A DNA stretch of 62,267 bases, counting the filler, from Sanchytrium tribonematis (taxonomy: Eukaryota): NCBI GenBank assembly GCA_018985235.1. It is 5 parts of 5 records of this genome, joined end to end, with 100 filler letters (N's around TTAATTAATTAA, not from the genome) between each part and the next. Parts side by side here need not be neighbours in the genome. Positions count along the whole stretch, not along the records: positions 12,533 to 24,920 come from JADGIG010000219.1; 4 more parts are not named here. The stretch is one strand, 5' to 3'. Shown piece by piece: positions 6,417-60,447 of this stretch. Every line of letters begins with the position of its first letter. Position 1 is the stretch's first letter. A model generated the notes under the pieces. The model ran no database searches and was not told where the DNA came from. It was given only the letters and a program-made list of their open reading frames with translations. The position numbers and the translations under genes are program-made.

Positions 6417-7925
6417 TTAAGAATTTAAATTGTTTCTACGCACAATTTCTTTCAATAATTTAGTAAACGGCATTGTGAATCCAACATATGCTGCTTTAAA
6501 GGAATTTAGGTCGGTGTATTGTTCCATTACTTTTCCAATTACATTCCAATTGCTATACTTCTTTTGATCACGTCGATTTGTACACGTACCCCATTCTTTC
6601 ATTGGAGTGAATATCCCTACCGCTGGATTCACATTAAACCAATAATCCCACAAATCATCAACTGATTTTGGTGGTTTGGGAACAACACGTGATGTAGTTG
6701 TTGCAGCAAATGAATTGAGATTGGTTTGTCTTGGCTGTAGAGAAGGCTGCAAAACTGTAGTCTTTGTTACAGTTTTTGTATTTATTGGTGGTGCAATAGA
6801 TTGACCAGGTACTACTTTAGTTTGTGTATTAGGATTGTCATGCTCTCGAAGTATTCGTGCAACTGATTCAGCTATTTCATTTGGATTAAATTGAGGCTGT
6901 GGTTGTCTATGCATTTGTTCAGCCGTTTTAAGTAAATTAGTTGGGTCTATATTATTTGAAATGTTTTCAGTAATTAGGTAGGTCGCCATTGTTTTAGCGT
7001 CCGACCATCTACACCATGCCATAAGTTGATTGAAATCAAATCGACGAGTTGGCGACAGAAACACTCTAAAATAAGCACCCCCACGACGGAAACTATGCAG
7101 TGAGACACCTCTTGCAATGTTGGCATTAGATTCCGTCACATCATCAATAATTTGTTTAATCTTTGCTTGAATGCCTTTGGCGCTGTGGTGTACATCAACA
7201 TTTCCATCTGTTTCAAAACGATAACAAGAAAATAAATAATCATTTCTTCTAAGATTAGTTCTCAATGATTGTAAATGTTGCCTGTAGATATTATAAAAGT
7301 CAACAACGTTTAAACAAGAAACACCTGGTTCATTGTAGAGGTGATATACTCGTGAACCATTATTTACATTGGCGTGTTTAAACCATCTTAGACGTACAGC
7401 TAAATATGGCTGATTGTCAGAGTCTCTACGTAGTTCAACATCATTCCATTTAAAATCTAATACTTCGTTGATTCGGAAGCAACCAATAAATGTCAATGAG
7501 AATAGAAATTGATAATAAGTCTTAATAAATGGATGCTGGGAATTTAAACTTGACATTAACTCATTTAATTCAAATGTTGTTATTGGATGGCTCTGTAATT
7601 CCTCGTCAATATTATTACTTCTTCTATATTTTTTAAGCCCACTAACATATTTCTTTGCCTTTTTATCCTTAGCCGGATTATTTGCCATATTCTCAAACAA
7701 ATGTACAAGTGCGCTCTTTGCTTGATCAACGGATCGGGCCTTTTGACCTCTTTCTGCTTCATGATGTAGAAAACTCACAACATGATCCACTAATACTGTA
7801 TGTTCTGGATTATCAGATAATGGATTAGCTTCTAAAAATCGCTTATATCCTTTTATATAGGACGCATAACTTGCATGTGTATTGTTTGAAAGATGTGAAT
7901 TAAGAATCTCAGTAATTGTAGGCAT
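6417..7925 (-). CDS. Crypton-type tyrosine recombinase with C-terminal GCR1_C-like domain
   Basis: Intact 502-aa ORF from ATG 7925. Catalytic set: R (GCFRINE), K (WFKH), HxxR (HSFRRGG), W (WCRW), Y (MATYL). The C-terminal PKSVDDLWDYWF..G..PMKEW resembles the GCR1_C domain of Crypton recombinases. Confidence 0.85.
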   Translation of the reverse strand: MPTITEILNSHLSNNTHASYASYIKGYKRFLEANPLSDNPEHTVLVDHVVSFLHHEAERGQKARSVDQAKSALVHLFENMANNPAKDKKAKKYVSGLKKYRRSNNIDEELQSHPITTFELNELMSSLNSQHPFIKTYYQFLFSLTFIGCFRINEVLDFKWNDVELRRDSDNQPYLAVRLRWFKHANVNNGSRVYHLYNEPGVSCLNVVDFYNIYRQHLQSLRTNLRRNDYLFSCYRFETDGNVDVHHSAKGIQAKIKQIIDDVTESNANIARGVSLHSFRRGGAYFRVFLSPTRRFDFNQLMAWCRWSDAKTMATYLITENISNNIDPTNLLKTAEQMHRQPQPQFNPNEIAESVARILREHDNPNTQTKVVPGQSIAPPINTKTVTKTTVLQPSLQPRQTNLNSFAATTTSRVVPKPPKSVDDLWDYWFNVNPAVGIFTPMKEWGTCTNRRDQKKYSNWNVIGKVMEQYTDLNSFKAAYVGFTMPFTKLLKEIVRRNNLNS

Positions 7926-8034
7926 TTTATTTGTTTTAACTTGGAGTTCTAGGTGGGAAAAATTATGCATTTTATGCCATAAATATGCAGCCAATGGACA
8001 TGTTATTTGACTAGATTGATTGGCTACTGTCAAA

Positions 8035-9138
8035 TTAGTGTCTTGATTGGCTTAAGATGTCCAAAAATGTCCCAATTGGTGTCTTGCTAATGTCCGTTTC
8101 ATTTATTATGTCATTTTCTAAATGGGTGATTTTCTGATTCAAATTGAGAATAGATTGTTGATTTTCCTTTGAAATGGCCATTTGATTCAATTGATTATGA
8201 GTCAAGGTGAATTGTTGGTTAAAAATATCAATTTCATTTAATATTTTTGAATTTGGAATTGGGAAATCATATTCATATGGGGAAATAATAGGAACACCGG
8301 TGAATTCTCTATTAAGCGGATTCTTGCTAAGTAATTGGCGTGTAAATTGACTCAAATCTTCATTCATTAAACAGTCTAAATCCAATGGAAATGGATTTGC
8401 AAAAATATCCAAATCTTTTAATTTTTGATTTGTGCCTAATAGCATGAGAGAAATAATGAATAATCCCACTTCAAAATAATCCGTGTATCTTCTATTAATT
8501 TGTGTCTTTTCTAGTGTCTTTGGATCATCATAAACAGACTCAATTTTGAATTCTAAATTGTGAAAAAATGCGGATTTTAAATCTAAAGCGAGACCATATG
8601 GCTGTGCTACATATAAATTACAATCATCATCTACTGTGAAATCAAGTGGTGTATTGCGATATAGATACACATTATAATTGTGGAATATTTTGACGATATT
8701 CATTAATTGGTAAATAATGTAATATTTGCAATGGAATGGGAAATCATTGCCATGTTTAGATAGAAATGTATTTAATTGATGTAAATTGCGATGATTGTCA
8801 AATACCAGTCTAAAATAGCCATCATAATTGCAATATCCGAGATATTTTGGAAAGAAATGAAATTCATCTAATTTGTCAATAATTTGTAAATGGTTGTATA
8901 TTTTTAATTCAACTGGGTCAAATTCATTTTGTGCAATGTGCATTCTGTGTTTAAATTTGTAAAATGATTCTTTAGGTGGATTTCTTTTAATAATATGATC
9001 TTTTGCAAATAATTCAACACTGACTGGTTCGTCATTGTATATTGCTTCAAATACATGACAGTGAGTCAATTCGGTTGATCCTCTGCCAAAAATGTAATCG
9101 CCTACTTGAACATGCTCTAAAAATGGCAATTCGGACAT
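8035..9138 (-). CDS. Protein kinase-like (probable pseudokinase) with C-terminal coiled coil
   Basis: Kinase-like layout (FGRGS loop, FPKYLGY, IIYQLMNIVKIFH, TDYFEVG, LLSKNPLNR) but no canonical VAIK, HRD or DFG motif. Confidence 0.55.
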   Translation of the reverse strand: MSELPFLEHVQVGDYIFGRGSTELTHCHVFEAIYNDEPVSVELFAKDHIIKRNPPKESFYKFKHRMHIAQNEFDPVELKIYNHLQIIDKLDEFHFFPKYLGYCNYDGYFRLVFDNHRNLHQLNTFLSKHGNDFPFHCKYYIIYQLMNIVKIFHNYNVYLYRNTPLDFTVDDDCNLYVAQPYGLALDLKSAFFHNLEFKIESVYDDPKTLEKTQINRRYTDYFEVGLFIISLMLLGTNQKLKDLDIFANPFPLDLDCLMNEDLSQFTRQLLSKNPLNREFTGVPIISPYEYDFPIPNSKILNEIDIFNQQFTLTHNQLNQMAISKENQQSILNLNQKITHLENDIINETDISKTPIGTFLDILSQSRH

Positions 9139-9688: not shown

Positions 9689-9890
9689 AACACCATAAAT
9701 AGCGAGTATTCTTTTTAATACAATATTTGCAAGAAATTAACCATCTGATTGGTACGACAAGCTAATTGCGAATATGCAACCACTCCAATCACAAGGACTT
9801 GACTTCAACACCAAGTGAAAATGACTTGGTTTGCAAGGGTGTCAAACAAATAGTTGCAAAATCGGAGAATCTCCTCGTTACAAATTCTGC

Positions 9891-12195
9891 ATGGTACTAG
9901 AGACCATCATTATCACAAAAGCCATATGCATCGTTGGTAAGTTGCTCCCTATTCTACAGAATATCGAACAGACCTGTGACAATAATGATAAAGCAACCAA
10001 ATTGTGTAGGAGATTTAAGAGATTAAACTTTGTATTAAAGAAAATGGCATCCAAGACCTTTTCAGAGACCACCATGGATACTTTGCAACATCTTTTGAGT
10101 TTCTTAGGAACGGTGGATCTATTTCTCCAAGATTTTAAAGATTTCTCTTATATAAGAAGATTCTTGTTAAATGCGAATTACAACAAGAAAATGACCAATT
10201 TTGATTCCGAAATAGATAAAATCATTAGTGAGTTGATTGTATCATACATTTGTATGCAATACTATGGATTTGAAATCTGATACTGCCGACATTAAAGAGG
10301 ACACAGAACAAATTACAAATCATGTGGTTGAAATGAAGGAATATTTACAAACCATGATGTCTCAAATCGATATTTTGGAGAGCAATCATCAAAACACACC
10401 TCCAGTAGTTCAGCCAGTAGGTATATCAGATGCGCAAATGGCTGAAATTAGAGCCATGTTTGTAGAAATGGCAAATTTACAAAATCCACTAACTGCTGAG
10501 AATTTGGAAGAAACGAGAGAAATTGTGATTCAATCCTCTAAATCATTCGATATTGATTATATTGATGGCATTGAATTGTTTAATAATGAAATATTGGGAA
10601 GTGGCTCATATGGCACTGTTTATTTAGGAGAATGGCATGGCATCAAAGTAGCCATTAAACAAATAACTCACTTTTCATTTAATAATCCATCCTCATTTAC
10701 AGTCAAATCAGATGCATTTGAGAAGAACAAGTCCGTTTTACGAGAAGTGAAAGCATTTGAAAAATTAAACAAATCTCCATTTATTTGTAGTTTCTACGGC
10801 GTGACATCCATTGATGGTAAATTAGGGCTTGTTACGGAATATCTAGACAACAATTCATTGTATCATTGGCTCTATACGGATGGTAAATCACTCACAGATC
10901 CACAAATCAATAAAATTCGACTCGGGATTGCCCGTGGTCTAACTTACATGCATTCCCATGGAATTGCCCATAATGATATTAAATCTAATAATATCATGTT
11001 GGATAGTCAATTGATGCCTCGTATTATTGATTTTGGAATGGTTAAAATGAACAATTCAACCATGTCATTTCATGGCAAATCCAAATCAGTAGGGACAGAT
11101 CATTGGAGAGCACCAGAGTATTGGGATGTCTCTACTGAATCATTCCAACTGCGTGATCAATTTCCATTTGCGGGAGATGTTTTCTCCTTTGCCATTGTTT
11201 TGGGTGAAATGGCAACATGTCAAATCCCATGGGATCAGCGTAGTGAATGGGATATTGAGCGTGCTATTTCCAAGGGAATGCGTCCATATACTTCAGATCA
11301 AATCAAATTTTCTCCTTTATTCGAAATTATTGATAAAGCATGGCAGCAACATCCAAAAGACAGATATTCTATGGAAGACTTGCTCAAGAAATTAGAATCT
11401 CTAGGCAGTTCGGCCAACTTTGTCATAAAACATAATTGGGAATATTTTGCAGAATTGACAAACCCCGCCCGTATAGATAACATTTTTGGCAATGAACTAC
11501 TCAAATCATTCAAGGAATCCATTCAAACTGTGAATCACTCATTGTTCCAATCGTACTTGTTAAAATTAGTGAAAATTGTGAAGTTATATGATATAAAATC
11601 CTATATTGAATCATTAAAACCATTAAATGATAAAATGATTAAATTGAAAACACGTGAAACAGATTTATTTATACTTAATATCATGGCATTTCTCAAAATT
11701 GGAATTGAAAAAGACAACAAGGAGATATTTAATGATTTTGTGAATTCTGACCATGAATTATCTAGTTATTTTATTGGATATTGCTATTCAAATGGACTTG
11801 GGGTGGCTGAAAATGATTTTAAAGCATTTCAATATTTCAATAAAGCATCAGAATTGGGAATACCAGCTGCTCATTATTATTTGGGAATCAGCTATTTATA
11901 TGGAAAAGGGTGTGCAGTAGATCATGAAATGGGATTAAAATATTATCAAATGGCTGGAGAATCACATTTTGGAGAAGGATATTCTGCAATCGGATATCTT
12001 TATAGAAATGGGAATATTGTGGAACAAAATGAAAAAAAAGCATTGCATTATGATGAATTGGCTAAACCATATAGCTATGATGAAGAGACGGGCGATGCAT
12101 CATTAAAACTGATACTGTCTAGAATATCTCCTGAAGTAAAGAAAGAGGTTTTAGAAAAATATATGTTGATGCAACAAAATAATAAATCAAAATAA
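9891..12195 (+). CDS. MLKL-like N-terminal helical domain + TKL protein kinase + Sel1 repeats (split across two ORFs)
   Basis: The N-terminal ORF from ATG 9891 resembles an MLKL/HeLo-like four-helix bundle (NNDKATKLCRRFKRL..IRRFLLN). ORF 10237-12195 has GSGSYG, VAIK, HNDIKSNN, DFG, WRAPE and Sel1 repeats (IGYCYSNGLGV, LGISYLYGKGC). The two are joined by a +1 shift or by a candidate GTGAGT..AAG intron at 10228-10297. Confidence 0.8.
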
Positions 12196-12432: not shown

Positions 12433-12532
12433 NNNNNNNNNNNNNNNNNNNNNNNNNNNNNNNNNNNNNNNNNNNNTTAATTAATTAANNNNNNNNNNNN
12501 NNNNNNNNNNNNNNNNNNNNNNNNNNNNNNNN
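12433..12532. other. Artificial contig-joining linker
   Basis: N44-TTAATTAATTAA-N44, which places stops in all six frames. Confidence 0.98.
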
Positions 12533-14448: not shown

Positions 14449-16552
14449 TTATTGGGTGACTTTCCATAAAATCAAGCAATTATCCATTCCACCAGTACTC
14501 AACAAATATTGACCATCTTGGGTAAATTTGACGCCTGTAACATGCGAGCAATGTCCAATGTATTCCTTGAAAGCTAAATTAAAACAAAGTACGTGGCGCA
14601 GTCTTAGATCGTGGTCTTGGCCAATTCCAAATCTGGACAGTAGAATTGTCTGTACCATCTACCAAAATTTTCTTCTCGGGATGAACAGCAACACAATTAA
14701 TGTCACTGGCATCGTGGACTCCTTTAGATTTGTCAGCATGTTGTTGCCAAATACCCATAGTAGACCAAGAAAACATACAAGTATAAGAATTGTACTTGAG
14801 TTGCTTAATAGTGTCAGCATGTGTCAATTGTTTAAGCCCTTCACAATCCCAATATAAAACTTCTTTATCTGTAGAGTTACTGATCAAAAAAGTGCCTTCC
14901 ACATTAAAGTCTACTGACAAGATTCGACTAGTATGACCACTCATTTCGCCCAATCTAGTGTGGTTGTTGGAAGCGTCATAAACGTCGATTTTACCATCTG
15001 CAGCACCTGTTACTAAATATTTTCCATTTGGACCGTATCTAATGCATGTAACGTCTCTATTGCTGACGGTAAATTTGTTCATTTGGGTCCAATTCATTCC
15101 TTTTTCATCTCCTTCAAAAACATGAACAGTACCACTTCGAAGACCAACGGCAATTTTTTGCAATTTTGGATGCCAGCATATAGCTCTTGCAGCTCCTACC
15201 TTAATTTTAACTATGCATTTTCTATCTGAAATGTTCCAAATTCGAACGCATCCATCATCACCACAAGTAGCTGCAAAATTACCTTTAACATCTAATCCCC
15301 ATAATTCGGCATCTTTAGATGAGTCATGAGCATTGACCAATTTTGTTGGCTTAGCTGGGCTTACAAACTTATTCAATTCAGTATCCCATTCAGATATGTT
15401 GCAATTTCTCATACCAACAAGAATTTTGAACTTTTCATTTCCACTTGTGTCAATACTACAGATATTGGGGAGTTCAGCTTCATCTCCTTCTTTCAGTTGA
15501 CACTCAGAAAGAACTTTTAGGTCTGCATCTAAAACTGCAAGCTTGGCATCTTTACCTCCACAAATAATGGAATTCATATGCTTCTTTAGTGCCAAGATAT
15601 TTCCATTGATAACAGGGTTATTTGTTTTGTTAGCTAGCTTTCCGGCCTTCCAGACATAAATGTGCCCATTTGCAGTTCCTGTCCACACTGTGTCGTCATT
15701 AAGGTAAGCAGCTGTTGGGAGTGCTTGGATTAAATCATTATTTCCAAACTCACCTCGCTTGATTTCGAGTTTTCCACTGACGAATGTTGAAAATCCGATG
15801 TATTTGACACCAACTAGGGTACATTCCGTCTTCTTAGTGGGATGGGCAACTAAGTCTAAAACTTTGTTGGAGATTCTTGTTGAAGTTAATAATTTCTCAT
15901 TATTCCAATCGTAAACCAAGACTTCATTATTTGGGTCTCCTCTAGTAACGCCATACAAGAGATCTCCAGTACAATTAAATTGCAACGCATTGATGCCATT
16001 TGAACCACGAGGTACCTTACAAGTTTTCAACAATTGGGCCTCTGGGAGTTTGTTGAATTTGGTATCTGAAATCTTGTATATGTTGATGTATGCATCACGT
16101 CCGACTTGGCCTAATGCAACAAGTCTAGAAGAAGTATGAACCGCAAGACCTAAAACATCATCATCGTGTCCTTGGAGAATGCATTGGGTGTTACTAGACT
16201 TTTGATGAACAATTCCAAGGCTTCCGGCAGTATAAATGACCAAGTCGTTATCTGTTGCGTTTAAAGCGGTAGGCAAATAAAACAAATTATTTCTTCTTTC
16301 TTTCGCATGATATCCAAAGACGTAGTTTAATTCCAATTTAAACAAAGGATCAGACATAACCACCTCTGGTTTTTCAATAGGAGCATGCACTTGTGAGGTA
16401 GTTTCTTTAATTGGCGTTTGTCCAGTATTTTTGGGTGTGGTTTTAGGCTTTGACGGTGATGTTGACGGTGAGGCAGATGAGTTTGATTTTGTAGGTGACG
16501 GAGGTTGTTGACCTTTTGGGACAGTAGTAGTTTTTGGTTTCGGCGCACTCAT
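14449..16552 (-). CDS. Echinoderm microtubule-associated protein-like (EML) HELP-WD40 protein; 19-nt intron at 14574-14592
   Basis: HELP motif LELNYVFGY..RNNLFY and many WD40 repeats. Removing the intron gives TAPPFKEYIGHCSHVTGVKF..LLSTGGMD, the EML C-terminal repeat. Confidence 0.88.
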
Positions 16553-16700
16553 TTTATTTCAAAATTGAATGTTTCAAAAATGAGAGGAATTTTTATACCT
16601 AAATTATTCGTATCATTATCATCAAGTAATAGGTCATTGATTATACCATTTTCAGCGGTGAAATAATATCAAAATTAATTTAATGCTTTAAAGTATAAAT

Positions 16701-17069
16701 TTATTGTGTTTTTAAAAAATTGATAAATGTGGAAACGTCTTCCTTTTTAATGCTCACTTCTTGACTTAAATCCTCGGTGGTAACTTCAACAGGCGAGAAC
16801 TGAATATGCTGAGAATCAATTTCCTTCATAATAAGCTCATTTCGGCCAACCTTAATGTGCACTTGCTCTTCTTTATCCATTGATAATTTAATACCAGATA
16901 AATTCTCGTAAAGTTGAAGCAAATATTTTGACGAACTGGCATCCTCGGAACCTTGTAGTTTCTCGTCTAATCTCTGCATCTTATTGAGAGCTTCTGTAAT
17001 TTCCTGTTTGACAGTATCTAACTCATCTTGAATCATTTGAGGGGTATTATTCACACAAATATAAACCAT
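16701..17069 (-). CDS. Small coiled-coil protein, possibly monopolin Csm1/Pcs1-like
   Basis: Coiled coil followed by LYENLSGIKL..FSP..LSQEVSI..F, reminiscent of the Csm1 RWD domain. The match is weak. Confidence 0.4.
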   Translation of the reverse strand: MVYICVNNTPQMIQDELDTVKQEITEALNKMQRLDEKLQGSEDASSSKYLLQLYENLSGIKLSMDKEEQVHIKVGRNELIMKEIDSQHIQFSPVEVTTEDLSQEVSIKKEDVSTFINFLKTQ

Positions 17070-17370
17070 AAATCAGCACATGGTACACCAAGTGCGACAC
17101 GCTCTATCAAAACTATTTCAATTTTAAACTTAGGCAAATTATAAACGAGAGTTTGTCGTGCTAAGTTTGGTGTGATGTTAGAGAAATTGTGAAAATCAAA
17201 ACTCAACAAGACATTAATTCTCACTAAGTACGATTAACAATATAGACATTGAAAATGCCATTTTGCGGAAGTAGTACACGATTTTGAAGATTTTAATTTA
17301 TAACTGAAGGAATTTTGTTATTAGCAATCAAATATCAAAATTTATTACGTTAAACCTAATCACCCAAATT

Positions 17371-18117
17371 TTATTGGGTTGATAATGGGTCCCTATCTTT
17401 CATGCTTATTTGGACATGCTCTAGACCTTCTTTTAGTAAAATCCTTTGCAAAACTTTTAAATAGCCTCTTTCGGTATTTGTATGATTCGTAACAATCACC
17501 ATTTTGTCGTTTTGTGCTAGATTGAGGATTTCATGATGGCCCAATTCACCAGTAATATAGCAATGTGCATCAAAATTGGGGAGAACGGAACCACCAGATC
17601 CAGCACAAACTGCAATACTTGATACATTTTTTCTTGAGTTTGCAACTTGAATGTATGGTATGCTGAGATGGTTTTTCATTATTTTGATGAGTTCGTCACC
17701 TTCAATGGAGGTGCTTAAAGATTTCGATCTACCACTTTTGTCTTGGGGAACATTTAGATCGCCATCAAAAGGACTTAGAAGCCAGTCGTTTATTCCGCCT
17801 TCCATTGAGTCAAGCCTTGTGTGTGGACAATAAACGCCAATTCCATGATATAAAAGAGAGCTCAAAATAAATTGCTTCGGGTCTGTATGTACAATTCTTT
17901 TAATGCCTTTGAATATTATTGGATGATATGCAACAATAACAGAAACCTCATTTGCAATTGCTTCATTCAGGACCTCTTTAGTCAGGTCAATTGTCAAAAG
18001 GATCTTATTACTGGTCCTTAATTCAAATGGTTCAACTAGGATTCCTGTGTTGTCCCATGGAGCTTCAAGTGTTTTCGGTGCAATTTGCTCAAATATAGTA
18101 GCGACTCGCTTGAGCAT
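17371..18117 (-). CDS. NIF3: NIF3-like protein (GTP cyclohydrolase 1 type 2 / YbgI family)
   Basis: WDNTGIL, LLTIDLT, AYHPIIF, HTRLD, IAVCAGSGG, TGELGHH and HTNTERGYL motifs. Confidence 0.92.
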   Translation of the reverse strand: MLKRVATIFEQIAPKTLEAPWDNTGILVEPFELRTSNKILLTIDLTKEVLNEAIANEVSVIVAYHPIIFKGIKRIVHTDPKQFILSSLLYHGIGVYCPHTRLDSMEGGINDWLLSPFDGDLNVPQDKSGRSKSLSTSIEGDELIKIMKNHLSIPYIQVANSRKNVSSIAVCAGSGGSVLPNFDAHCYITGELGHHEILNLAQNDKMVIVTNHTNTERGYLKVLQRILLKEGLEHVQISMKDRDPLSTQ

Positions 18118-18165
18118 ATTGCTGGAACTGTAGGGGAAATTTCTAGGAAATTGAATTGAAAATAT

Positions 18166-18570
18166 TTATTTTTTACTCTTTTTACCCTTCTTCTTTTTGG
18201 ACTTCTTATTGTCTTTTTTCTCAGCAGCAGCTTTTTCTAATGCTTGATCTTTGAGAGTCTTCTTGACGACTTTCTTTTCTTCCATTAAAAAGGCGCGCAA
18301 AACTCTATTTTTTACACAAGCAGAGCAAACACTACCACCGTAAGCCCTATTAACATTTTTTTGTCTTTTAGAAATACGCGAATATTCTTTAGGTCTCAAA
18401 TGTTTAATACCAGGTAGGATAACGTCACAACCAGCACCGCCGCATTTTGGGCCTGATGCCAATTTCTTACGGTATTGGAAAACTAATTTAGAAGGTGCTT
18501 TTACAACTCTAACGGCATTGCTTTTCGTATTGTATGACAATCGACGTCTGTATGTTAATCTTTGAGCCAT
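18166..18570 (-). CDS. RPL34: 60S ribosomal protein eL34
   Basis: MAQRLTYRRRLSYNTKSN..RAYGGSVC..RAFLMEEKK. Confidence 0.96.
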   Translation of the reverse strand: MAQRLTYRRRLSYNTKSNAVRVVKAPSKLVFQYRKKLASGPKCGGAGCDVILPGIKHLRPKEYSRISKRQKNVNRAYGGSVCSACVKNRVLRAFLMEEKKVVKKTLKDQALEKAAAEKKDNKKSKKKKGKKSKK

Positions 18571-18823
18571 ACATAGTGACTCATGATGCAAAAAATTCAG
18601 TCCAACACGTGGTTTTAACCAATCAGAAGTCCTGTCAGAAATTTATACCAATGTTTAATTTCAAAGATTCCACAATTCAACTCTTTCATTCTTGAACTAC
18701 TTCTCAAGCTGCATCATGAACCGCATTGCGGCAAATTAATTTGAGCTAACTCCTGATTGGGTATGGTTTGATTGGCTGCAAATCTAATAAAGTCTGAGCT
18801 TTGTAAAAAGGTGAAACTTTTGA

Positions 18824-20206
18824 ATGAGGTCCCACAGGAGATCAACTAGACAATCATCTTCCGGTTTAATTGAGAAAGAAAGTCAAGCCAGCCTTAATCC
18901 TGACGATTCGGTCAGTAACATTAGTCCACAATCACCTCCAATTGCGGCCTATTCCAATTTTTATTATCCACAACAACATTTGCCATCACACCAGATCCCA
19001 GTTGAACCAAATTACATGGCACATCAAAGCTATCAGCAGAATTATGAACAAAATTATGAGCAGCATTATGATATGGAAAATATTAATCAAGAACAAGAAG
19101 AACCTTATCTTGAAAGCGCATATGACTACACGATAGAGCCATCTTCTCAAGATTTTTTAAATCCGATAGGCCGAAAGAATAGTGGAAGCATTCATAACGC
19201 CAATGAGTCAAGAAACTCTAGGCAGTCTGTTAGTGACAATAATGCATCGGAAGAAAGAAGCAAATTAAGGCCAACTTCACAACTTGTAAATCCAGAAGTT
19301 AAACCACCAAAGCGACATTTTCCATTTTTTTCATATGTACTAAGCATTGCTCACGTTGTCGTTTTAGTTATTGCCTTGTTTGTCAACAAGGGAGCTACAG
19401 GAAATTTGTTGGCACCTATAACTAGCAATTATATGATAGGACCAGATTCCACTGCACTTATTAAAACTGGTGCTCGATTTGTGCCTTGCATGAAGCGTCA
19501 GGATTTCCCTAATTTTAAACTAGGAAATTGTCCTAGAAATGGAGGCGAATTGGGAACTTGTTATTTGAGTGAGTTATGTGGCTTTACTGATACTGATCAA
19601 TGGTACAGAATCATTACAGCCTTGTTTTTACACGCTGGAGTCATTCATTTGATTTGCAATGTCTTCTTCCAATTAAGTTTACTTAAGGATTTGGAGAGAG
19701 TTTGGGGTTGGTTTTTAATCTTCCCTATTTTCATGCTAAGTGGATCATTTAGTTTTCTTTTTGGTGCTGCCTATGCGCCTCAAACTGACGTTACACCATC
19801 TGTTGGATCCTCAGGGGCTTTGTTTGGGATAACTGCGGCCTTAATTATCAATCTATTAATTCATTGGAAGTCTTTACATAGGCCAATATTGCAATTGGTC
19901 AACCTAACTGTTGTTATTGTGATATCGATTCTATTCGGAATTTTTGTTTCTTTTATCGATAATTATGCTCATATTGGTGGATTTATTATGGGAATCGGCA
20001 ACAGTTTAATATTTGCTCCTTATGAGGGCGTTCGAAATACTCTTCGAAGAGTTGGTGTTAGAAAATCTTTAATTTACTCATCCTGGTTTCCTTGGACTTG
20101 CCGTCTCATTGGAATTGTATGGAGCGTTATTTTGTTTGCCTTTGTGGCTAAAGATTTTTATTCCAACACAAAATCGTGTTCCATTTGTGAAGGTTTAAGC
20201 AGTTAA
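18824..20206 (+). CDS. Rhomboid-family intramembrane protease (fungal type)
   Basis: GARFVPCM, QWYRIITALFLHAGVIH, catalytic VGSSG and AHIGG motifs. Confidence 0.9.
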   Translation: MRSHRRSTRQSSSGLIEKESQASLNPDDSVSNISPQSPPIAAYSNFYYPQQHLPSHQIPVEPNYMAHQSYQQNYEQNYEQHYDMENINQEQEEPYLESAYDYTIEPSSQDFLNPIGRKNSGSIHNANESRNSRQSVSDNNASEERSKLRPTSQLVNPEVKPPKRHFPFFSYVLSIAHVVVLVIALFVNKGATGNLLAPITSNYMIGPDSTALIKTGARFVPCMKRQDFPNFKLGNCPRNGGELGTCYLSELCGFTDTDQWYRIITALFLHAGVIHLICNVFFQLSLLKDLERVWGWFLIFPIFMLSGSFSFLFGAAYAPQTDVTPSVGSSGALFGITAALIINLLIHWKSLHRPILQLVNLTVVIVISILFGIFVSFIDNYAHIGGFIMGIGNSLIFAPYEGVRNTLRRVGVRKSLIYSSWFPWTCRLIGIVWSVILFAFVAKDFYSNTKSCSICEGLSS

Positions 20207-20214
20207 TGAATTTA

Positions 20215-22828
20215 TTAGAATTTCAATTGTGTTTGAATAGCATTCTCTTTTTCCTCTGGCTGGGTATCATATAATTTCACTCTCTTTCTGTTTTCCTCTT
20301 CTTCAGTCATACGCTTTCTATGATCTTCTTTTAATTCTTCAAACTTCTTTACTTTCTCCATACTTTGAGAAAAAGATTCGTCTTGTACATCTTCTGGTTT
20401 GTCTAATGCAAATGGATTAATCTTATTAAGCTTGATTTCGTCAGAATTATCTATTTGCATCAGGCTAGACACTTCCGCTATAGACACTAATTCATTTTCT
20501 ATTTTCCTTTCCATCGGTTCAAAACTGTAATTATTCGTATCATTATTAGTTAAAATTGTATTAAAGGCATAGTCATCAGCAGCAAATGGGTCTTTAATCT
20601 TTGAAGCTTGAACATCATCATCTTCGTCAAATTCATTTTCATTTTTGTATGACAAAATTAAGTCTGCAATATCAGATCTGTTGAAATAATTTACAATTTT
20701 AGCAGCAGCTTCGTATGATTGCTCCAAATGTAGCCGACCAGACAATGCCAAAACTTTTTTAAAATTGTCAGCTTTGCACGCGTTTTGTATTAATTTGAGT
20801 GAAAGTTTATCTGCTTTGCCTTTAAGTTCGAATATGTTATCGTCTTCTTCAAAATCAGAAATCAACATATTTAAGGTAAGAAGGATATTTTCATTTCTCT
20901 CAGACTGTGGATCTGTGGAATACCCTTTCATCTCGAGCTCGACAGATGTTGGAATTGCATCTGGGACCGGAGGGTATGGCATCTCCATCTAAGTTAATAA
21001 AAAATACAGGACATGCTACAAAATGAAACCTTTCACTTGAGACACCAACCGGCCAAATATAATATTCATTGTAGACTTCTCGCCCTCGCAAATCTAATAT
21101 TGGAACCCACAAGTTTCCTTCGGATAGCATTTGTAAACAGCCATTAGAGTCGTAAATTACCGGGTTGCCATAATAAGAAAATGATGAAAAAAGAATGTTT
21201 GCGCCTAGAATTGGTATTTGGCCATGTTTGATGACCCTGGATTTATCAGTATCAACATAGCTGTAGCAGGTATTTCCAAGAAAATCCGCAAAAATTGCAA
21301 AAATTTTAGATTGATATGCACATAGTGATATGCAGCGACCTTCTAAGGCAAAGACGTGCGTAGTTACACCAGAATAATCAAAAACGTAGACCTTAAGACT
21401 GCTTAAACAAATTGCAACACCGCCATTAAAAGCTGCTATTGCCTGAGGCTCACTGTCCAAAGTAATAGTCCAATCATTTCCACTTGCTCTGTCCGGATCA
21501 TGGAATGCTAGTTCAAAAGGCTCTTCTAAACGGAGCATGTATAGACCATCGTCACTAATATCTGCCATCTCATAATCATTTAAATCTGCATATCTCAAAG
21601 GTTTTTTGGTTTTATTATGATAATCACCAGTAATGAAGGAACCGTCATCTCTTTTAACTTTGCTAACTTTCCCCGACAAATTGAATGCCAGGAAACGTTT
21701 TGTCCCAACATATGGTGTTGTACCAGACTGAAACGGTTCTTGATTAACTGTGAGTTCTTCCAATGCATCTTTGACATCTTTCAAAGTGACCTTGCCTCCA
21801 GTAGGTCGAAGGTCATTTTCGTCTTCTTCCAAAAAATCATTTAAATCGTCACCTTGACCATCTTCTCCTTCATTTCCATTGTTGTCGGCAAACATTTCAT
21901 GGTAAGCATCCGTTTGGGTGACGGGGTCTACAGCTCCAACATCCTGGGTGTCAAAATCTTCTTGAGCTTCAACTTCAGTGAAGTTCGCTGGCGGTTCTTG
22001 TGCTTGGTTTTGCTCTATCTGTAATGGAAGAATGGTTGCTCCTCCACTTTTTATAGCAACAAATACGCTTTTGTTGACGACGCATATTGCAACAGCTTCG
22101 TCTATATCATATTTTGCAAGTTCTTGGTGAGTTTTGAAATCCAGCACAGTGACATGAAATAATGAGCAAATATAAATCTTATCGTTTGAAACGCAAAGGT
22201 CTCTGATTATAGATGAATACTCTATTTCCGCCAGATTATTAAATTTCGAGTCTATATAATTCAGAGCGGATAAACCTCCAACAATTAACCCATTCATGGG
22301 AGTCCAAGCAAACGGAAATCGCTTATTTTGGTCAATGTCAAATGTAACAAAAGTGTTGTGTTGGCTCACAATTTCGAGATTATCCATGCTAAAAATTGAT
22401 AGAACTCCATTTTTGTCTCCCAAGGCAAAATATTTTCCATTAGGGCTCACTTTTAAAGAAATTGCAATATTCTTTATCTCTACTGAAAGAATTTTGTTAG
22501 AAGTCATATCAAATTTTTTTAAAGTTGTACCAAAAGAGTAAATTAAACAGTCTTCGCCATAGCAATCCATTGCTCTAATTTTTGCATTTTCCTTGGCCAG
22601 AATCTTTTCTAAGTCACCCTCAAGATGAAAAAGTTCGATCTCGGTGTCATTCGCAACAAAAATTCGGCTCTTCGAGGAACAAAAACAAAAATTATCATTA
22701 TTTGCGATAGTATTCTTAATACCCTGTTCGTCAACAAATTGCAACTCTGTTTCTGATACTAGGACAGCATGATTTGCGGCAGTAAATGCAGTTATAAGCG
22801 GACCCGTCGTAGAAATTGTTCTTAGCAT
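20215..22828 (-). CDS. CTF4: Ctf4/Mcl1/WDHD1 replisome hub protein; 19-nt intron at 20989-21007
   Basis: N-terminal WD40 and SepB-domain motifs EPFQSGTTP..RFLAFNLSG, YDSNGCL, WVPILD, WPVGV. The intron joins ..FVACP to MEMPYPP.. in frame. Confidence 0.85.
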
Positions 22829-22879
22829 CTCGGAGGTTTTGTCGCGGCGGAAAATTAATTGCTCAATGATGCTTCATAT

Positions 22880-23416
22880 TTATTTTTTGGTATTCCAAGG
22901 AAGTACCACGTTCTGGTTTAGCAGCCAGGAAACATCATTAAGAGGGGGATCATCTTCTAGTGCAGAACATTCAATTACTTTATGAGAAATTGGTCCCAGC
23001 CTTAAAAAACTATCAATGTCTGCGGATGATTTTGCCTCTTCTAGATCTTGCTTGTTTGCAACTACTAAAATTGGGCAAAAAAGATCTGATTTCACCACAG
23101 AGTGAAGCTCATCTTTAGCCAGTGTTAACCTGTTAAGATCCGACGAATCAATTATCCAAATAATCCCATCCACAACGTCTTCAAAATAATTTTTCCAGAA
23201 TATCCTTATGGAGCTTTGACCTCCAATATCCCAAAAATTAACATGGTATCCATCAATATCTTCACTTAGAATTTGGAAACCAAATGTGGGTTCAATTGGT
23301 TTTTGGATGTGTAGCAAATTATATAAGAATGTTGTTTTTCCAGAGTTGTCAAGTCCTAACACCAAAATCCTCTTGTTTTTTTCCTTTTTCTTTATTTTTT
23401 GGACAAGACTGTACAT
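22880..23416 (-). CDS. ARL2: ARF-like small GTPase (Arl2/Cin4 type)
   Basis: GLDNSGKTT, PTFGF, WDIGGQSSIR and ANKQD motifs. Confidence 0.8.
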   Translation of the reverse strand: MYSLVQKIKKKEKNKRILVLGLDNSGKTTFLYNLLHIQKPIEPTFGFQILSEDIDGYHVNFWDIGGQSSIRIFWKNYFEDVVDGIIWIIDSSDLNRLTLAKDELHSVVKSDLFCPILVVANKQDLEEAKSSADIDSFLRLGPISHKVIECSALEDDPPLNDVSWLLNQNVVLPWNTKK

Positions 23417-23633
23417 TGTAAATTAATTTGTGTCAGATGAATCTCCGGTATGTTTAGGTTAACCAGAAAATAGATCAAGATGTTATGAAAAGCACCTCGG
23501 AATTCTTCGCAATTAATATCAGGATTGAGTTGAACTTGGATTTTACACAATATTAAATTTTAGGTGATTTGTTTCAAATAAAAAATCACGTGTAAAAACA
23601 ATTTCCAATCCAGTCATTCAAATTTTCAAAGCA

Positions 23634-23926: not shown

Positions 23927-24703
23927 ATGGAACACTTGGAGTTGGAATTTACTCCCGATGATTTAGAAATTTTCGATGACCAGCTCGTTCATGCATGCTA
24001 TGAATTACAAGATTCAAAAAGAGTCGGTAAAATTGCTTCTAGATCTGCGGAGTATTACAGAGGAAATGGTGTTCTGGATATCGAAGTGTACAAGGAAAGA
24101 CTATATGGCGTGACTTCTGAGGGCGAACTTATCGTAATTGGTGAAGACAAAGAATGCTATGAGATATCAAATGGGATTGGATTGTCATTGTCTATATCAA
24201 ATTTGGGAATGTGTCTTATTTCCGATTCATTGGGTTATCTGCATATTTTCGACACTAATACTAGAACCTTGATGCAAGACATTAAAGGACATAGTTTGGA
24301 AGTATGGAGTTGTTGCTGGCAAAATCATGCCAATATCGTTTCTGGTGCAGATGATTGTAACTTAAATTTTTGGGATATTATTTATGACAATAATATTCTA
24401 TGTGGAAACTATGACGAAAAAGTCCGTATTGTGGATTCAAGAACGCCAAACAGAATCGAATCAGAATTAGACTGTGGGGGTGGAATATGGAGAATGAAAA
24501 AGAACCCAAACAATGATCAAATATGGTTGATTGCTGCAATGCATGGTGGTGCACACATTGTAGATTTGAGGCAAAGTCAAATTCTGCAAACTTTTTCAAA
24601 ACACGAATCAATGGTTTACGGAGCTGTGTGGCTTAACCAAACTGAAGTAGCCACTTGTTCCTTTTACGATAAAATGTTGTGGTTCTGGAATATGGACAAA
24701 TAA
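23927..24703 (+). CDS. DPH7: WD40 protein, diphthine methylesterase Dph7/Rrt2-like
   Basis: SDSLG, GHSLEVW, SGADD, GNYDE, GGGIWR, AAMHGG, HESMVYG and TCSFYD motifs. Confidence 0.8.
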   Translation: MEHLELEFTPDDLEIFDDQLVHACYELQDSKRVGKIASRSAEYYRGNGVLDIEVYKERLYGVTSEGELIVIGEDKECYEISNGIGLSLSISNLGMCLISDSLGYLHIFDTNTRTLMQDIKGHSLEVWSCCWQNHANIVSGADDCNLNFWDIIYDNNILCGNYDEKVRIVDSRTPNRIESELDCGGGIWRMKKNPNNDQIWLIAAMHGGAHIVDLRQSQILQTFSKHESMVYGAVWLNQTEVATCSFYDKMLWFWNMDK

Positions 24704-24920: not shown

Positions 24921-25020
24921 NNNNNNNNNNNNNNNNNNNNNNNNNNNNNNNNNNNNNNNNNNNNTTAATTAATTAANNNNNNNNNNNNNNNNNNNNNNNN
25001 NNNNNNNNNNNNNNNNNNNN
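24921..25020. other. Artificial contig-joining linker
   Basis: N44-TTAATTAATTAA-N44. Confidence 0.98.
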
Positions 25021-35094: not shown

Positions 35095-37385
35095 AATGAT
35101 TTAAAATCAACTGAAACAGGAGAGAAACAAAGTACTTCCGATGGAGACAATGGTACTCCAACACCTCAACAACAGGATGAAACACTTATTTCCTTAAGTG
35201 AGAAATATGATGGTGAAGAATTTGAGGAAATCCCAACTAGTGCACCTCCATCTAACTCAGAAGATGTGATTAATTTTGGAGAGTTGATGCAACAATTTGC
35301 AGACTAACAAAAGAAAGTCAATGCAATTTGTCAACCGGGACCTGGAATTAGACCTACACCTCCTTGGGTTCAAAATGAAAACAAAGAACTGGTGAAAGAG
35401 TTCAAGTACAACATTCCAGCATTCGACGAAAAGAAAGAAAAAGTTGATGAATGGTTATCCAAAATGGAGGATAACAAAGAATTACTTGGTTGGTCTGAAG
35501 AGTGCTTATACAAAGAAGTCAAATTAAGATTGCCTTCCTCCATTTTTAAACAAATTCAAAATTGTGAAAAGAACTATGAAAGTTTAAAAGCAACTTTGTT
35601 ATTGGAGCTAAAACCACCTAGTAATGATATTAAGTATACGCATGAATTTTTTAGATTGTCACAAAGACAAAATCAAACTATTCAGCAATATGTCAAAGTT
35701 TTGAAAGAATTTCATCACAAATGCAACTTTGACACTGATGATCCAAATGAATGTATTATTTTCTTTCGGAAATTTTGCTCTTCATTATTGGATTCAAGAA
35801 TTATGAGACAAATTATAGCTGAATGATGTCAAAACTTTCGTGAAGCCTATGAATTGGCTATTAATTTGGAATCCGAAGCAACGAACGACTACAAGTCAGT
35901 TCATATGAAAAAGAAGAGCTTCAGTGGTTCTAATCAACCTTTCAAACAATCGGATCATAAAGAAGAATTTAAGAAACCTTATTACCAAGGTAAATCTTCT
36001 AAAGGCAAAAAACCATTCTTCAAAAAGCCAGAAATTAAAAAAGTAAATGGTTCAAACTATTTCGACAATTCTTGCGGAAATTCGGCCCGTCAACACAATT
36101 TGTAATATATTGATGGATACAGGAGCTAGCCATTGCTTTATGAGTGAAGCAACAGCGTTTGATTTGCAGTTAAAAATTAAGCCAGCTAAGCTCGATGAGA
36201 CAGAATCAGCAAATGGATCAAAATTGACCATTATTGGTTTTGCTCAGTGTAGTGTTTATTATTCGCAAACACCTGTCAAGCACAATTTTTACATTATTCG
36301 TAATCTAGCATCTAATATCATAATTGGGAGAGATAGCATGAGATTACAGAATATGAATATTGACTTTGAACGAAACTTTATCTGGATCAATGGTATGCCA
36401 ATTCGCATGAATCGTAGTCCAGATGAGGTAGCAGTTCAAACAGCAATGTTAAATTATGTCAGTACTTCTAAAAATAGCAAATTAAAAAAGTTTCAACTTC
36501 AGGAAATCCTGAAAGATATTACAAACGATTACGATTTGCATAGTGAAGATATTGTACTTCCAAATGAAAAAGACGACAACTCACCCAGAGACTTAGTGAT
36601 AAACGATAAACTAACAGAAGAACAGCAACAAGAACTTCGAAACGTAGCAAACCAGTTTCTGCCATGTTTTGGTTCTGAGAATAAGACTCGAGTTAGAACA
36701 AGACATCACATTAGAACGGATTGCGAACCTGTCAGAGCAGGAATCATAAAAGAGGAATGCGAAAAGATGCTAAAGGAAGACAGGATTGAACATTCCTGTT
36801 TTGACTGGCGCTCATCTGTAGTCTTAATTCCGAAGCCTGACGGATCAGTTCGTTTTTGTGTAAACTATAAACTATTTAACAAACAAACGAATTTCGACGC
36901 ATATCCTTTACCAAACTTACAATCTCTATTATCAAAACTTCAATGAGCAAAATTTTTCATTTTACTGGATCTTAAATCCGGATACTGGCAAATTAATTTA
37001 GCCGAGAAAGATAAAGAAAAAACAGCATTTGTTACACCATTTGGACTATTTCAATTTAAAGTTGTACCATTTGGGTTGTCAACCGCTCCAGCCACTTTTC
37101 AAAGACTCAAGAATGAGATCTTTGACAAAATGATGGGCAAAGATCTATTAATTTATTTAGATGATCTATTAATTTATGCTTCGACTTTCGAGGAATTAAT
37201 TGAAAAATTTGTCAGAGTTCTAAGAAAGTTGGAATTGCATGGTCTAACTCTCAGTGACAAGAAATGCCACTTGGGAATGACAAAAATTAATTTTCTGGGT
37301 TTCCAAATTTCCGCAGAAGGCATTCAAGCTTGTGAGGAAAAGATTAAAGCCGTAAAAGACCTTTCTGCGCCCAGCACAGTCACAC

Positions 37386-37485
37386 NNNNNNNNNNNNNNN
37401 NNNNNNNNNNNNNNNNNNNNNNNNNNNNNTTAATTAATTAANNNNNNNNNNNNNNNNNNNNNNNNNNNNNNNNNNNNNNNNNNNN
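37386..37485. other. Artificial contig-joining linker
   Basis: N44-TTAATTAATTAA-N44. Confidence 0.98.
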
Positions 37486-41979: not shown

Positions 41980-42555
41980 TCAAGTTTGAGCATATTCAAT
42001 GATCATGGGCTTACTTTTTGTAATCAAGAAATTATGCAACGTGGATTTGGCTAATTTTGCCTGTTCTTCAGTTTGATAATCTACATATGCGACATCAGTT
42101 CTCCCAGCAACTAATCTAACTTGAATAAATCCCTCATACTGTTGAAAGAGCAAGCCGAGCATGTCATCACTAACTTCACTAGGCAAATTTTGAACATATA
42201 ATATATTACTAGGATTCTCAATCTCTTCAACATCCATGTCTACAGGCACATTTTCTTTTTTAGTCGAATATTCTCCATTAAAAATTGAAAGCTGCTTTCC
42301 GTTTTCCTTGGCGTAATCTAGTTTCATAGGTTTACCGAATATTATTTTGCTTTGAAATTGCTGAATTGCTGCAACTGCATCTTGGAGTTCTGCAAAAACA
42401 ATAAATGCTTGTCCGCGCATTTTCGCAGATTTGAGAGCCACGATATCAAGAACAGTTCCACATTGACTAAACAGTAAATAAAGGGTTTCCTTAAGGGTAT
42501 TCTTATTAATTTTATCATTTAAATTGTGAGCATAAATTGTATTTTTAGGTTTCAT
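41980..42555 (-). CDS. U1A/U2B'' snRNP two-RRM protein
   Basis: NTIYAHNLNDKI..LYLLFSQ..KMRGQAF, plus a second RRM ILYVQNLP..VRLV. Confidence 0.9.
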   Translation of the reverse strand: MKPKNTIYAHNLNDKINKNTLKETLYLLFSQCGTVLDIVALKSAKMRGQAFIVFAELQDAVAAIQQFQSKIIFGKPMKLDYAKENGKQLSIFNGEYSTKKENVPVDMDVEEIENPSNILYVQNLPSEVSDDMLGLLFQQYEGFIQVRLVAGRTDVAYVDYQTEEQAKLAKSTLHNFLITKSKPMIIEYAQT

Positions 42556-42651: not shown

Positions 42652-43173
42652 ATGGATCTCGACATCTTGTTGATTCCCCAAGCAAATAAATATCTCGGAA
42701 CAAAATCATTCAAATTACACGATAATGAAGAGAAAGCTATAGGAAGAAATGGTAGCAAATCAGATATAATGTTTAATTCTAAAGTAATTAGCAGAAAACA
42801 CGCGTACATCATTTTTAAAAATTCCAAAGTGTATATTAGAGATGCTGGTAGCTCATCAGGTACATTTATTAATACAATTAGATTATCACCAATGGGAAGA
42901 GATTCTGACTGGGCAGAAATCAGAGATGGTGATGCAATACAATTTGGAGAAACTTTCCAACAAAACGATAACATTCATCCGTGTGTTCAGTGTAAAATGT
43001 ATTTAGCTAAACAATTTAATGGAGACTTAATTGGACCAGAAATTGCTAGCAATATTGAAGAAGAGTTTGAAGAGATGGTTAAATTCTTGGATGAGAAATC
43101 AAATATTTTGGCTATCTTCGAAGCAAGAAAAACCAAGTCAAATGGCAGTATAAAACCAGGTAATAATAATTAA
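42652..43173 (+). CDS. FHA-domain protein
   Basis: IGR..FNSKVISRKHA..IRDAGSSSGTFIN..DGDAIQFG. Confidence 0.88.
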   Translation: MDLDILLIPQANKYLGTKSFKLHDNEEKAIGRNGSKSDIMFNSKVISRKHAYIIFKNSKVYIRDAGSSSGTFINTIRLSPMGRDSDWAEIRDGDAIQFGETFQQNDNIHPCVQCKMYLAKQFNGDLIGPEIASNIEEEFEEMVKFLDEKSNILAIFEARKTKSNGSIKPGNNN

Positions 43174-43216
43174 TCTAGTTGACATTGAAGTTTACAAGAA
43201 AATACAAAGAAAGTAT

Positions 43217-49845: not shown

Positions 49846-49945
49846 NNNNNNNNNNNNNNNNNNNNNNNNNNNNNNNNNNNNNNNNNNNNTTAATTAATTA
49901 ANNNNNNNNNNNNNNNNNNNNNNNNNNNNNNNNNNNNNNNNNNNN
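49846..49945. other. Artificial contig-joining linker
   Basis: N44-TTAATTAATTAA-N44. Confidence 0.98.
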
Positions 49946-50109: not shown

Positions 50110-50190
50110 TTTATTGTTTCAAGGATAAGGATATCGAAATATCATGTAGTACCTAAAAAACCGTATACTAAAGGGGAATTTTCTTCAAAC

Positions 50191-59327: not shown

Positions 59328-60447
59328 GTGGATCCACAAATCTTCAAACATCTCAAAATGAATCACATTGAGTCAAATCAAATGTTATTGCTAATAATGT
59401 ATTTGTTATACGTTATTGTTGGATTAATTTTAGTTCTGATAAATAGAAACACGCAAATTATGCGAATTCGGTGCACAAATTTAATTTTATTGGAATCTGC
59501 TGCTTTTTCGCTTATTGGGCTTTTCATTTGTTTGATGAAATTTACAAATATAAGCAAGACCGTTCCATGTGATATATATCAACTGTTCTTCCCTGTGATC
59601 ATTAGTTTGTCTCTATCATTGCAATTTATAAGAACATGTCGTATTTATGTGTATTTAATGAAATCTCAAGTTGAGACTCATGCGGGTATATTGTTACGTA
59701 TTTGTGGATTATTTTGGAACAAGAGAGATGTTTCGAGATTGAAGTATCTCGTTCTTTTTGTTTTAAGTTCCTCAATTTGCAGTATTTTGGATTACGTTAT
59801 TGTCAAATATATTGAAAAAGAACCATGGTCCTTTCGATCCACTTTGTTAAAAGAAAATTGTGTATTTACAAGTATAAATTAGCTTTCAAATAGTCCATTT
59901 AGGATACATTTTAGTGTTTTTGTCATTTTCAATCCAATTTATTCGATATTCCATATTTGATGAAAACTATTTGAGTGTACAAGTCATTTGTTTGTCTTTT
60001 ACATTATTAATGGCTCCATTTGCTTCTATTGTCATTCCTGGGGAAATAATTGGGAATTTTATTTTTCTAGAATGTTTTATAGCGCTATTTTATGCTTTGT
60101 ATTTTCCATTAATCATGTCTCTCAAGGACAAACATATTAAAAAACCAGATATTACATTTGATAATGTCATTTTTAATACGCGATTGTTTGAAATTGCAAA
60201 ACAACTTCATGGAGAAGAAAATATGATATTTTTGCAAGCTATTGAGAGATACAAGTCAAACATAGTAACAATGGATTACTTGATAACCATGTTCATGAAG
60301 CCAACCAGTCCATTTGAACTAAATATTAGCCACGACTTGAGAAATGGGATTTTAAATTCGAATGGAAATCAACAATTGGCATATTTGGATCGAATTTGTA
60401 ATGAAATTAAGTTGCTGGTTGATTTAAATATCATGCCGTATATGTGA
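59328..60447 (+). CDS. 7TM-RGS protein (two ORFs; candidate 22-nt intron at 59872-59893)
   Basis: Multi-TM region followed by RGS motifs HGEENMIFL and SPFELNISH. Confidence 0.75.

What the first reader, a model, noticed from the sequence alone, without database searches (positions are those of the whole stretch)
20989..21007. Third 19-nt intron, in the replisome gene CTF4/Mcl1
Seen: the minus-strand GTATTTTTTATTAACTTAG sits exactly between codon CCT of the 642-aa ORF and the first codon of the 257-aa ORF. Splicing gives WPVGV..FVACP-MEMPYPPVP, consistent with the SepB domain running into the helical domain. It contains a TTAAC branch-like motif immediately before TTAG. Inference: a conserved housekeeping gene is unlikely to be a pseudogene, so splicing is the simplest explanation.
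Basis: partly seen in the sequence, partly recalled or inferred. Interest (0 to 1): 0.75.

Follow-up and report, generated by a model that had tools for sequence, protein, structure and literature searches.

The report
19-base introns in a parasitic fungus
A DNA-replication gene of what is likely an alga-parasitising fungus is broken by a 19-base insert that is likely cut out as an unusually tiny intron; related fungi are broken at the same spot, so their public protein lists likely hold split genes.

Summary
Confirmed. The 19-nt GT..AG stretch at 21007-20989 (minus strand) sits in phase 0 between the SepB-propeller half and the helical half of CTF4. Removing it scored best of 28 possible splice choices on a profile of 101 outside orthologues, with no gap at the junction. 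An indel in the T-run cannot mend the frame. All 4 of 4 close relatives, among them Amoeboradix gromovi (Sanchytriomycota), break at the same codon. Three tails fit a 19-base skip best; the fourth has a stop inside the insert. The window holds three more 19-mers of the same build (EML-like, APT1, FHA genes; A at position 14) and one 22-nt candidate. No RNA run was listed, so splicing is inferred. Tiny introns are known in ciliates, nucleomorphs (often 19 nt), mikrocytids, myxozoans and microsporidia (22-76 nt in E. cuniculi). I found none described for sanchytrids, whose proteomes were called without intron models. The scan's earlier notes hold nothing on sanchytrids. Verdict: a very likely real intron and a new, independent case of a known kind.

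The parts
21008..22828 (-). CTF4/Mcl1/AND-1 exon 1: N-terminal WD40 region and most of the SepB (Mcl1_mid) propeller
20989..21007 (-). 19-nt phase-0 GT-AG intron (inferred)
20993..20997 (-). branch-like TTAAC; predicted branch A at 20994 (intron position 14, -6 from the 3' end)
   Evidence: sequence; A at position 14 in 4 of 4 window 19-mers and forced in 3 of 3 informative CTF4 relatives
20215..20988 (-). CTF4 exon 2: end of the propeller, Ctf4_C helical domain, acidic tail
14574..14592 (-). 19-nt phase-1 intron (inferred) in an EML-like WD40 gene on the same contig
   Evidence: exon 1 matches Beta-prop_EML_2 positions 1-228, exon 2 positions 229-266; 3 of 3 close relatives break at the same codon
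51470..51488 (+). 19-nt phase-1 intron (inferred) near the start of an acyl-protein thioesterase (APT1-like) gene; removal restores the H-G-L-G-D motif
   Evidence: an X1 contig covers it with 0 differences
43160..43178 (+). 19-nt phase-1 intron candidate in an FHA-domain gene; support is the ORF join and the shared motif only
   Evidence: the second exon has no convincing Pfam match
59872..59893 (+). 22-nt intron candidate joining a 4-TM ORF to a 3-TM plus RGS-like ORF (a 7TM-RGS gene); also has A at -6; not pinned by homology
41980..42555 (-). U2B''/U1A-like two-RRM spliceosomal protein gene (another contig of the window)
   Evidence: E 4.6e-45 to human U2B''

Best explanation
The 19 bases are likely a tiny GT-AG intron that the ordinary (U2-type) spliceosome would remove, which would join the two open frames into one full-length Ctf4 protein of 864 residues. 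Shown: the junction, its fit to orthologues, and the same break in relatives. Inferred: the organism is a sanchytrid or a close relative; GUA is read as the 5' site; U2 pairs around positions 9-15 with the A at 14 bulged; a lariat with a 14-base loop forms; and the AG five bases on is the 3' site, with no room for a pyrimidine tract, so the intron would be recognised as one unit of nearly fixed geometry. An unspliced transcript would stop 35 codons later and lose the Ctf4_C helical domain. The same build recurs in three other genes of the window, which suggests 19 nt is this lineage's usual intron size, with some spread (one 22-nt candidate).
For: (1) Best of 28 frame-restoring GT/GC-AG choices on a profile of 101 outside orthologues: 249.7 bits, against 246.0 for the 25-nt acceptor and 174.2 unspliced; C-x5-Y-P aligns without a gap across the junction. 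(2) 4 of 4 close relatives end their N-half ORF just after the same F-H-[FY]-V-x-C-[PS] motif, each followed by Val, which forces GT. (3) Three tails fit the second exon best at a skip of 19: scores 58, 60, 42 against next best 29, 32, 20; 0 of 60 shuffled tails reached them in each of 6 tests. AG at 18-19 is possible in all three, AG at 24-25 impossible in two, and A at 14 is forced in all three. (4) The fourth relative has a stop at the third codon of the insert, and a matching C-half protein is listed with the same longest-contig length. (5) The EML-like break is shared by 3 of 3 close relatives, and in 2 of them the stop codon covers intron positions 12-14 as in the window. (6) The APT1 19-mer restores H-G-L-G-D as in human APT1. 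(7) A U2B''-like gene is in the window; the A. gromovi annotation table lists Prp8, Brr2, Dbr1, SF3B1, U1-70K, U2AF, ISY1 and a KOG0119 KH protein.
Against: No spliced read or cDNA was seen. The relatives' introns are deduced from off-frame protein tails with best-case codons, which shows compatibility, not their DNA; no DNA locus of a relative was found. The margin over the 25-nt acceptor in the window alone is only 3.7 bits. The strict motif (4 hits at 19 nt, none at 14-18 or 20-23, 6 hits in 15 shuffles) was drawn from the same introns, and it also hits 24, 28 and 31 nt. The match to TACTAAC is only 3-6 of 7. Not every break in the window is an intron: an MLKL_N-like ORF and a kinase ORF overlap at 10237-10280 with no GT/GC-AG join up to 60 nt. 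No snRNA gene was found in the window.
Confidence: 0.92

Rival explanations
1. The gene is truly split: two proteins are made, the second starting at the ATG right after the TAG or at the next Met.
For: The 257-aa ORF starts with ATG exactly at the junction; exon-2 codon 3 could be ATG in 2 of 3 informative relatives; gene callers list the C-half as its own protein.
Against: In P0003 no ATG is possible before exon-2 codon 12, which would cut off the conserved E-x-P-Y-P stretch. The cut falls inside the SepB profile. The N-half tails differ in length (2 to 35 residues) and read as off-frame exon 2. A split does not explain GT, A14 and AG at a fixed spacing, nor the EML-like and APT1 cases.
Confidence: 0.03
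2. A programmed +1 ribosomal frameshift or transcriptional slip joins the halves.
For: The two ORFs overlap by 89 nt and differ by +1; 89 of 141 single-base deletions tested open the frame; +1 frameshifting in yeast genes is known (recalled).
Against: All six T-run deletions are blocked by the TAG; the best single-base variant scores 241.0 against 249.7 bits. P0002 has a stop inside the insert, and the EML-like and FHA inserts hold in-frame stops too.
Confidence: 0.02
3. It is an intron, but the real acceptor is the next AG (25 nt), or both are used.
For: It scores only 3.7 bits lower.
Against: It removes two residues that the profile has; AG at 24-25 is impossible in P0003 and P0004.
Confidence: 0.02
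4. An assembly error or a pseudogene.
For: The window holds other broken genes without an intron solution; X1 may be the same data as the window.
Against: The X1 contig is identical across the site; the same break occurs in four relatives at 45-52% overall identity; both halves stay conserved.
Confidence: 0.01

Closest known systems
Ultrasmall introns of chlorarachniophyte nucleomorphs (18-23 nt; 19 nt is 70.3% of those in Bigelowiella natans; PMC4494063, passages read)
   Same: Same length, GT-AG ends, narrow size range.
   Different: Those are 793-1,028 per relic endosymbiont nucleus. Here they are sparse (4 or 5 seen in 62 kb) in a full fungal nucleus of unrelated origin.
Stentor coeruleus 15-16 nt introns (PMC9505925, passages read)
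   Same: GUA start, U-rich body, branch A at a fixed place (position 10 of 15 or 11 of 16, which is -6 as here).
   Different: 3-4 nt shorter, so a tighter lariat; a ciliate; there based on thousands of annotated introns.
Mikrocytos mackini 16-17 nt introns (PMC10245619, passages read)
   Same: A reduced parasite with a uniform tiny length.
   Different: A rhizarian with only 17-19 spliceosomal proteins found. The A. gromovi table lists U1-70K, U2AF, SF3B1, ISY1 and Dbr1; I made no full inventory.
Microsporidian introns (Encephalitozoon cuniculi 22-76 nt; PMC3629993 and PMC6349667, passages read)
   Same: Few, short GT-AG introns in a reduced fungal-line parasite, with the branch point close to the AG.
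   Different: The four here are 3 nt below that species' minimum, and three lie mid-gene or late. Sanchytriomycota is a separate phylum, so the shortening would be independent (inferred). I did not see the size ranges of other microsporidia.
Myxobolid and dicyemid short introns (median 22-27 bp; PMC13644364, parts 1-2 of 3 read)
   Same: Parasites with a 5' signal reduced to GTa and A residues near the AG.
   Different: Animals, with broader length ranges.
Ctf4/Mcl1/AND-1 (WDHD1) replisome hub
   Same: WD40, SepB propeller and helical C-domain in order.
   Different: No Pfam hit beyond Ctf4_C in the C-terminal half; otherwise an ordinary, fast-evolving orthologue.

Membership tests
U2-type spliceosomal intron | GT-AG ends | tested here: met
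   GT forced in 4 of 4 CTF4 relatives, AG possible in 3 of 3 informative ones
U2-type spliceosomal intron | Removal restores a conserved reading frame at that exact place | tested here: met
   best of 28 choices, no gap at the junction; also the EML-like and APT1 genes
U2-type spliceosomal intron | Branch-point A in a TRAY-like context near the 3' end | tested here: inconclusive
   A at position 14 in 4 of 4 window 19-mers and 3 of 3 informative CTF4 relatives; only 3-6 of 7 matches to TACTAAC; its use as the branch is not shown
U2-type spliceosomal intron | Absent from mature mRNA, leaving as a lariat | not testable with these tools
   the one run offered is held as DNA-like contigs
U2-type spliceosomal intron | The host encodes a major spliceosome | tested here: met
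   U2B''-like gene in the window; Prp8, Brr2, SF3B1, U1-70K, U2AF, Dbr1 in the relative's table; snRNAs not seen, only the window was scanned
Ultrasmall, fixed-length intron class (Stentor, Mikrocytos, nucleomorph type) | All or nearly all introns of the genome fall in a range of a few nt below about 25 | tested here: inconclusive
   4 at 19 nt and 1 candidate at 22 nt in 62 kb; no whole genome held; in-frame introns without a stop would be missed
Ctf4/Mcl1/AND-1 | SepB (Mcl1_mid) domain followed by the Ctf4_C helical domain | tested here: met
Sanchytriomycota | Groups with Amoeboradix/Sanchytrium in a phylogeny | tested here: inconclusive
   nearest named relative for two genes is A. gromovi, 58% and 71% over the regions searched; apart from P0003 and P0005, the best hit is only E 1.6e-32; no tree was built

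The most novel reading that the evidence does not exclude
Sanchytrid fungi have independently shrunk their few spliceosomal introns to a near-fixed 19 nt with the branch A locked at position 14: the shortest regular introns in Fungi, missed because the genomes were annotated without intron models, and spliced by a spliceosome that keeps U1-70K, U2AF and ISY1.
Probability: 0.6. Interest if true: 0.72.

Novelty: new member of a known kind. Interest (0 to 1): 0.62.

Why it matters
It would add a fungal phylum to the short list of lineages that splice introns under 20 nt, below the 22-nt minimum reported for E. cuniculi. Its -6 branch position matches Stentor's, which would point to a shared physical limit on how close branch and acceptor can lie. 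It also has a practical effect: both published sanchytrid proteomes were made with TransDecoder on genomic contigs, and the A. gromovi CTF4 and EML-like entries end in what read as off-frame tails. Split and truncated proteins, and missed short exons, could affect gene-content and gene-loss counts for the phylum.

Tried and rejected
No whole genome is held. No RNA holder listed; this is no evidence either way. Scans for DNA of relatives found nothing: CTF4 alignment in metagenome, viral and prokaryote collections, EML-like alignment in metagenome and viral collections. Rfam and ARAGORN found nothing in the window. Rejected as introns: the TPR ORF pair at 13200 (reads as two genes); 57213-57195 and 52040-52058 (19-nt GT-AG that would join a gene to an antisense or neighbouring ORF); the transposase-like break near 3490 (no join found). 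Left open: 23448-23466, a 19-nt GT-AG between the Arf-family and L37ae genes with no coding support. Nucleomorph, ciliate or microsporidian origin was set aside because the nearest named protein is a sanchytrid's. Dropped rows: P0013 (26% identity WD40) was left out of the EML-like alignment; of 148 outside proteins, 141 reached the end of the SepB profile and 101 were long enough to enter the orthologue profile. The protein atlas did not answer, and one paper (PMC3809491) is not held. No fold or complex was predicted, as the profile alignment already fixes the junction. PMC10158995, PMC8476143, PMC13685798 and PMC4435813 (passages) gave no fungal minimum intron size; PMC2483917 (passages) gave branch consensus and fixed branch-AG distances in other intron-poor lineages.

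Full report
Observation. The minus strand 21007-20989 is a 19-nt GT..AG stretch with one G or C inside. It follows 1821 nt of frame from ATG 22828 (phase 0) and ends right before the 257-aa ORF; removing it gives one open frame of 864 residues. Pfam puts Mcl1_mid (profile 1-268 of 291) on the first ORF and Ctf4_C on the second; human AND-1 chains are the best solved matches (E about 1e-19). The window is five contigs joined by N spacers, with G+C of 30-38%.

Is this the right cut? There are 28 GT/GC-AG pairs of 10-79 nt in the area that restore the frame. I built a profile from 101 outside Ctf4/AND-1-like proteins (of 148, none of the close relatives) and scored all 28. The 19-mer is best (249.7 bits); the 25-nt acceptor follows at 246.0, and the unspliced ORF gives 174.2. 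The alignment runs through the junction with C-x5-Y-P in register and no gap. Single-base deletions do worse: 0 of 6 in the T-run open the frame, and the best of the 89 that do (of 141 tested) scores 241.0. One contig of run X1 covers 14613-22948 with no difference or gap, though X1 may be the window's own sample.

Relatives. The search with the SepB half returned 5 proteins of 973 candidates: the window's own and four relatives. One is named Amoeboradix gromovi, phylum Sanchytriomycota. All 4 end soon after the same F-H-[FY]-V-x-C-[PS] motif, each followed by Val, which forces GT. P0002 stops at the third codon of the insert, and a C-half protein (P0008, 64% over the region searched) is listed with the same longest-contig length. 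For the other three I asked which skip length lets their off-frame tails encode the second exon. The answer is 19 in 3 of 3 (58, 60, 42 against next best 29, 32, 20), and 0 of 60 shuffled tails reached these scores in any of 6 tests. The tails force an A at position 14 in all three and allow A-C-N-A-A-Y at 10-15 in two. This is compatibility under best-case codons; I never saw the relatives' DNA (searches found none).

Other introns. Three more 19-mers share the build GTA, then TT at 11-12, A at 14 and YAG. (a) EML-like gene, 14592-14574: exon 1 matches Beta-prop_EML_2 positions 1-228, exon 2 positions 229-266, with two residues more than the profile at the join. All 3 close relatives, one of them A. 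gromovi, break at the same Arg codon, and in 2 the stop covers intron positions 12-14 as in the window. (b) APT1-like gene, 51470-51488: removal puts His directly before G-L-G-D as in human APT1; unspliced, the frame from that ATG stops after 18 codons. (c) FHA gene, 43160-43178: it joins 180 and 88 codons, with no homology support. A 22-nt candidate at 59872-59893 would join 4 and 3 predicted membrane helices and an RGS-like tail, so the length is probably not strictly fixed. Against over-reading: a loose motif is barely above chance (16 hits against 5-15 in shuffles), the strict motif is post hoc and also hits 24, 28 and 31 nt, and an MLKL_N-like/kinase break at 10237-10280 has no GT/GC-AG solution. 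In-frame introns without a stop would escape my scan.

Mechanism. Shown: sequence, frame, homology fit and the conserved break. Inferred from established spliceosome biology: GUA is read as the 5' site, U2 pairs around positions 9-15 with A14 bulged, a 14-base lariat loop forms, and the AG five bases on is the acceptor. A U2B''-like gene lies on another contig of the window. The A. gromovi annotation sheet lists Prp8, Brr2, Dbr1, SF3B1, U1-70K, U2AF, ISY1, SNRNP40 and a KOG0119 KH protein; the names SNU114, HSH155 and SLU7 gave no hit, and the file was cut when stored. Unspliced RNA would stop 35 codons on and lose the helical domain, which in yeast binds partner proteins (recalled). A split gene, a frameshift and an error are each unlikely: P0003 cannot start with ATG before exon-2 codon 12, P0002 has a stop within the insert, and the break is shared.

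What is known. Introns of this size are described in chlorarachniophyte nucleomorphs (18-23 nt, PMC4494063), Stentor (15-16 nt, branch A at position 10 or 11, PMC9505925), Mikrocytos (16-17 nt, PMC10245619), myxobolids (median 22 bp, PMC13644364) and E. cuniculi (22-76 nt, PMC3629993). I read passages of these, and two of three parts of the myxozoan paper. The sanchytrid genome paper (PMC8371127, passages) predicted proteins with TransDecoder on contigs, uses 'intron' only in its reference list, and gives about 35% G+C. In its readable supplements 'intron' occurs once, about mitochondrial group I introns; two supplements were too large and one was a scan, and these might bear on the point. PMC10459994 likewise has the word only in references. 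Ten searches of the open library (listings and abstracts) showed no paper on sanchytrid introns. Subscription journals and database gene models were not searchable. The scan's own notes hold nothing on sanchytrids or this stretch.

Verdict. This is very likely a real 19-nt spliceosomal intron (0.92), conserved in place and apparently in length across relatives 45-52% identical, and one of at least four in the window. The kind is known, but this lineage appears new for it, and the length is below the fungal minimum I found in print. The missing piece is RNA, then a genome-wide length count. Interest 0.62.

Noticed in passing
window 24378-24380 (+), WD40 gene 23927-24703: An X1 contig has 61 other letters where the window has 1, so the window copy seems to lack about 20 codons: an allele or a collapsed assembly.
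   Followed up: no
window 9825-12195 (+): An MLKL_N-like ORF overlaps a kinase-Sel1 ORF in the +1 frame with no GT/GC-AG join up to 60 nt: a frameshifted copy, an assembly error, or an unusual splice site.
   Followed up: partly
window 59316-60447 (+): Probable 7TM-RGS gene in two ORFs (4 and 3 predicted helices, weak RGS match E 0.016); the shortest join is a 22-nt GT-AG; X1 agrees with the DNA.
   Followed up: partly
window 23448-23466 (+): A 19-nt GT-AG with a GTATGT start and a TTAAC one base further 3', between the divergent Arf-family and L37ae genes; possibly an untranslated-region intron or part of a small RNA; no Rfam match.
   Followed up: no
window 14582: An X1 side contig differs by one base inside the EML-like intron, away from GT, A14 and AG.
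   Followed up: no
window 6417-8051 (-): ORF with a phage-integrase N-terminal SAM-like domain, suggesting a tyrosine-recombinase mobile element (Crypton/DIRS type, names recalled).
   Followed up: no
window 35308-37441 (+), 2648-3490 (+), 48415-48795 (+): Broken retrotransposon (gag, protease, reverse transcriptase) and DDE transposase remnants.
   Followed up: no
window 12433-12532, 24921-25020, 37386-37485, 49846-49945: N runs around a short spacer: the window is five separate contigs of about 12.4 kb, so neighbours across them are not linked.
   Followed up: yes
window 50083-50724 (+): ORF with a likely signal peptide and a weak match to fungal chitosanase GH75 (E 0.005).
   Followed up: no
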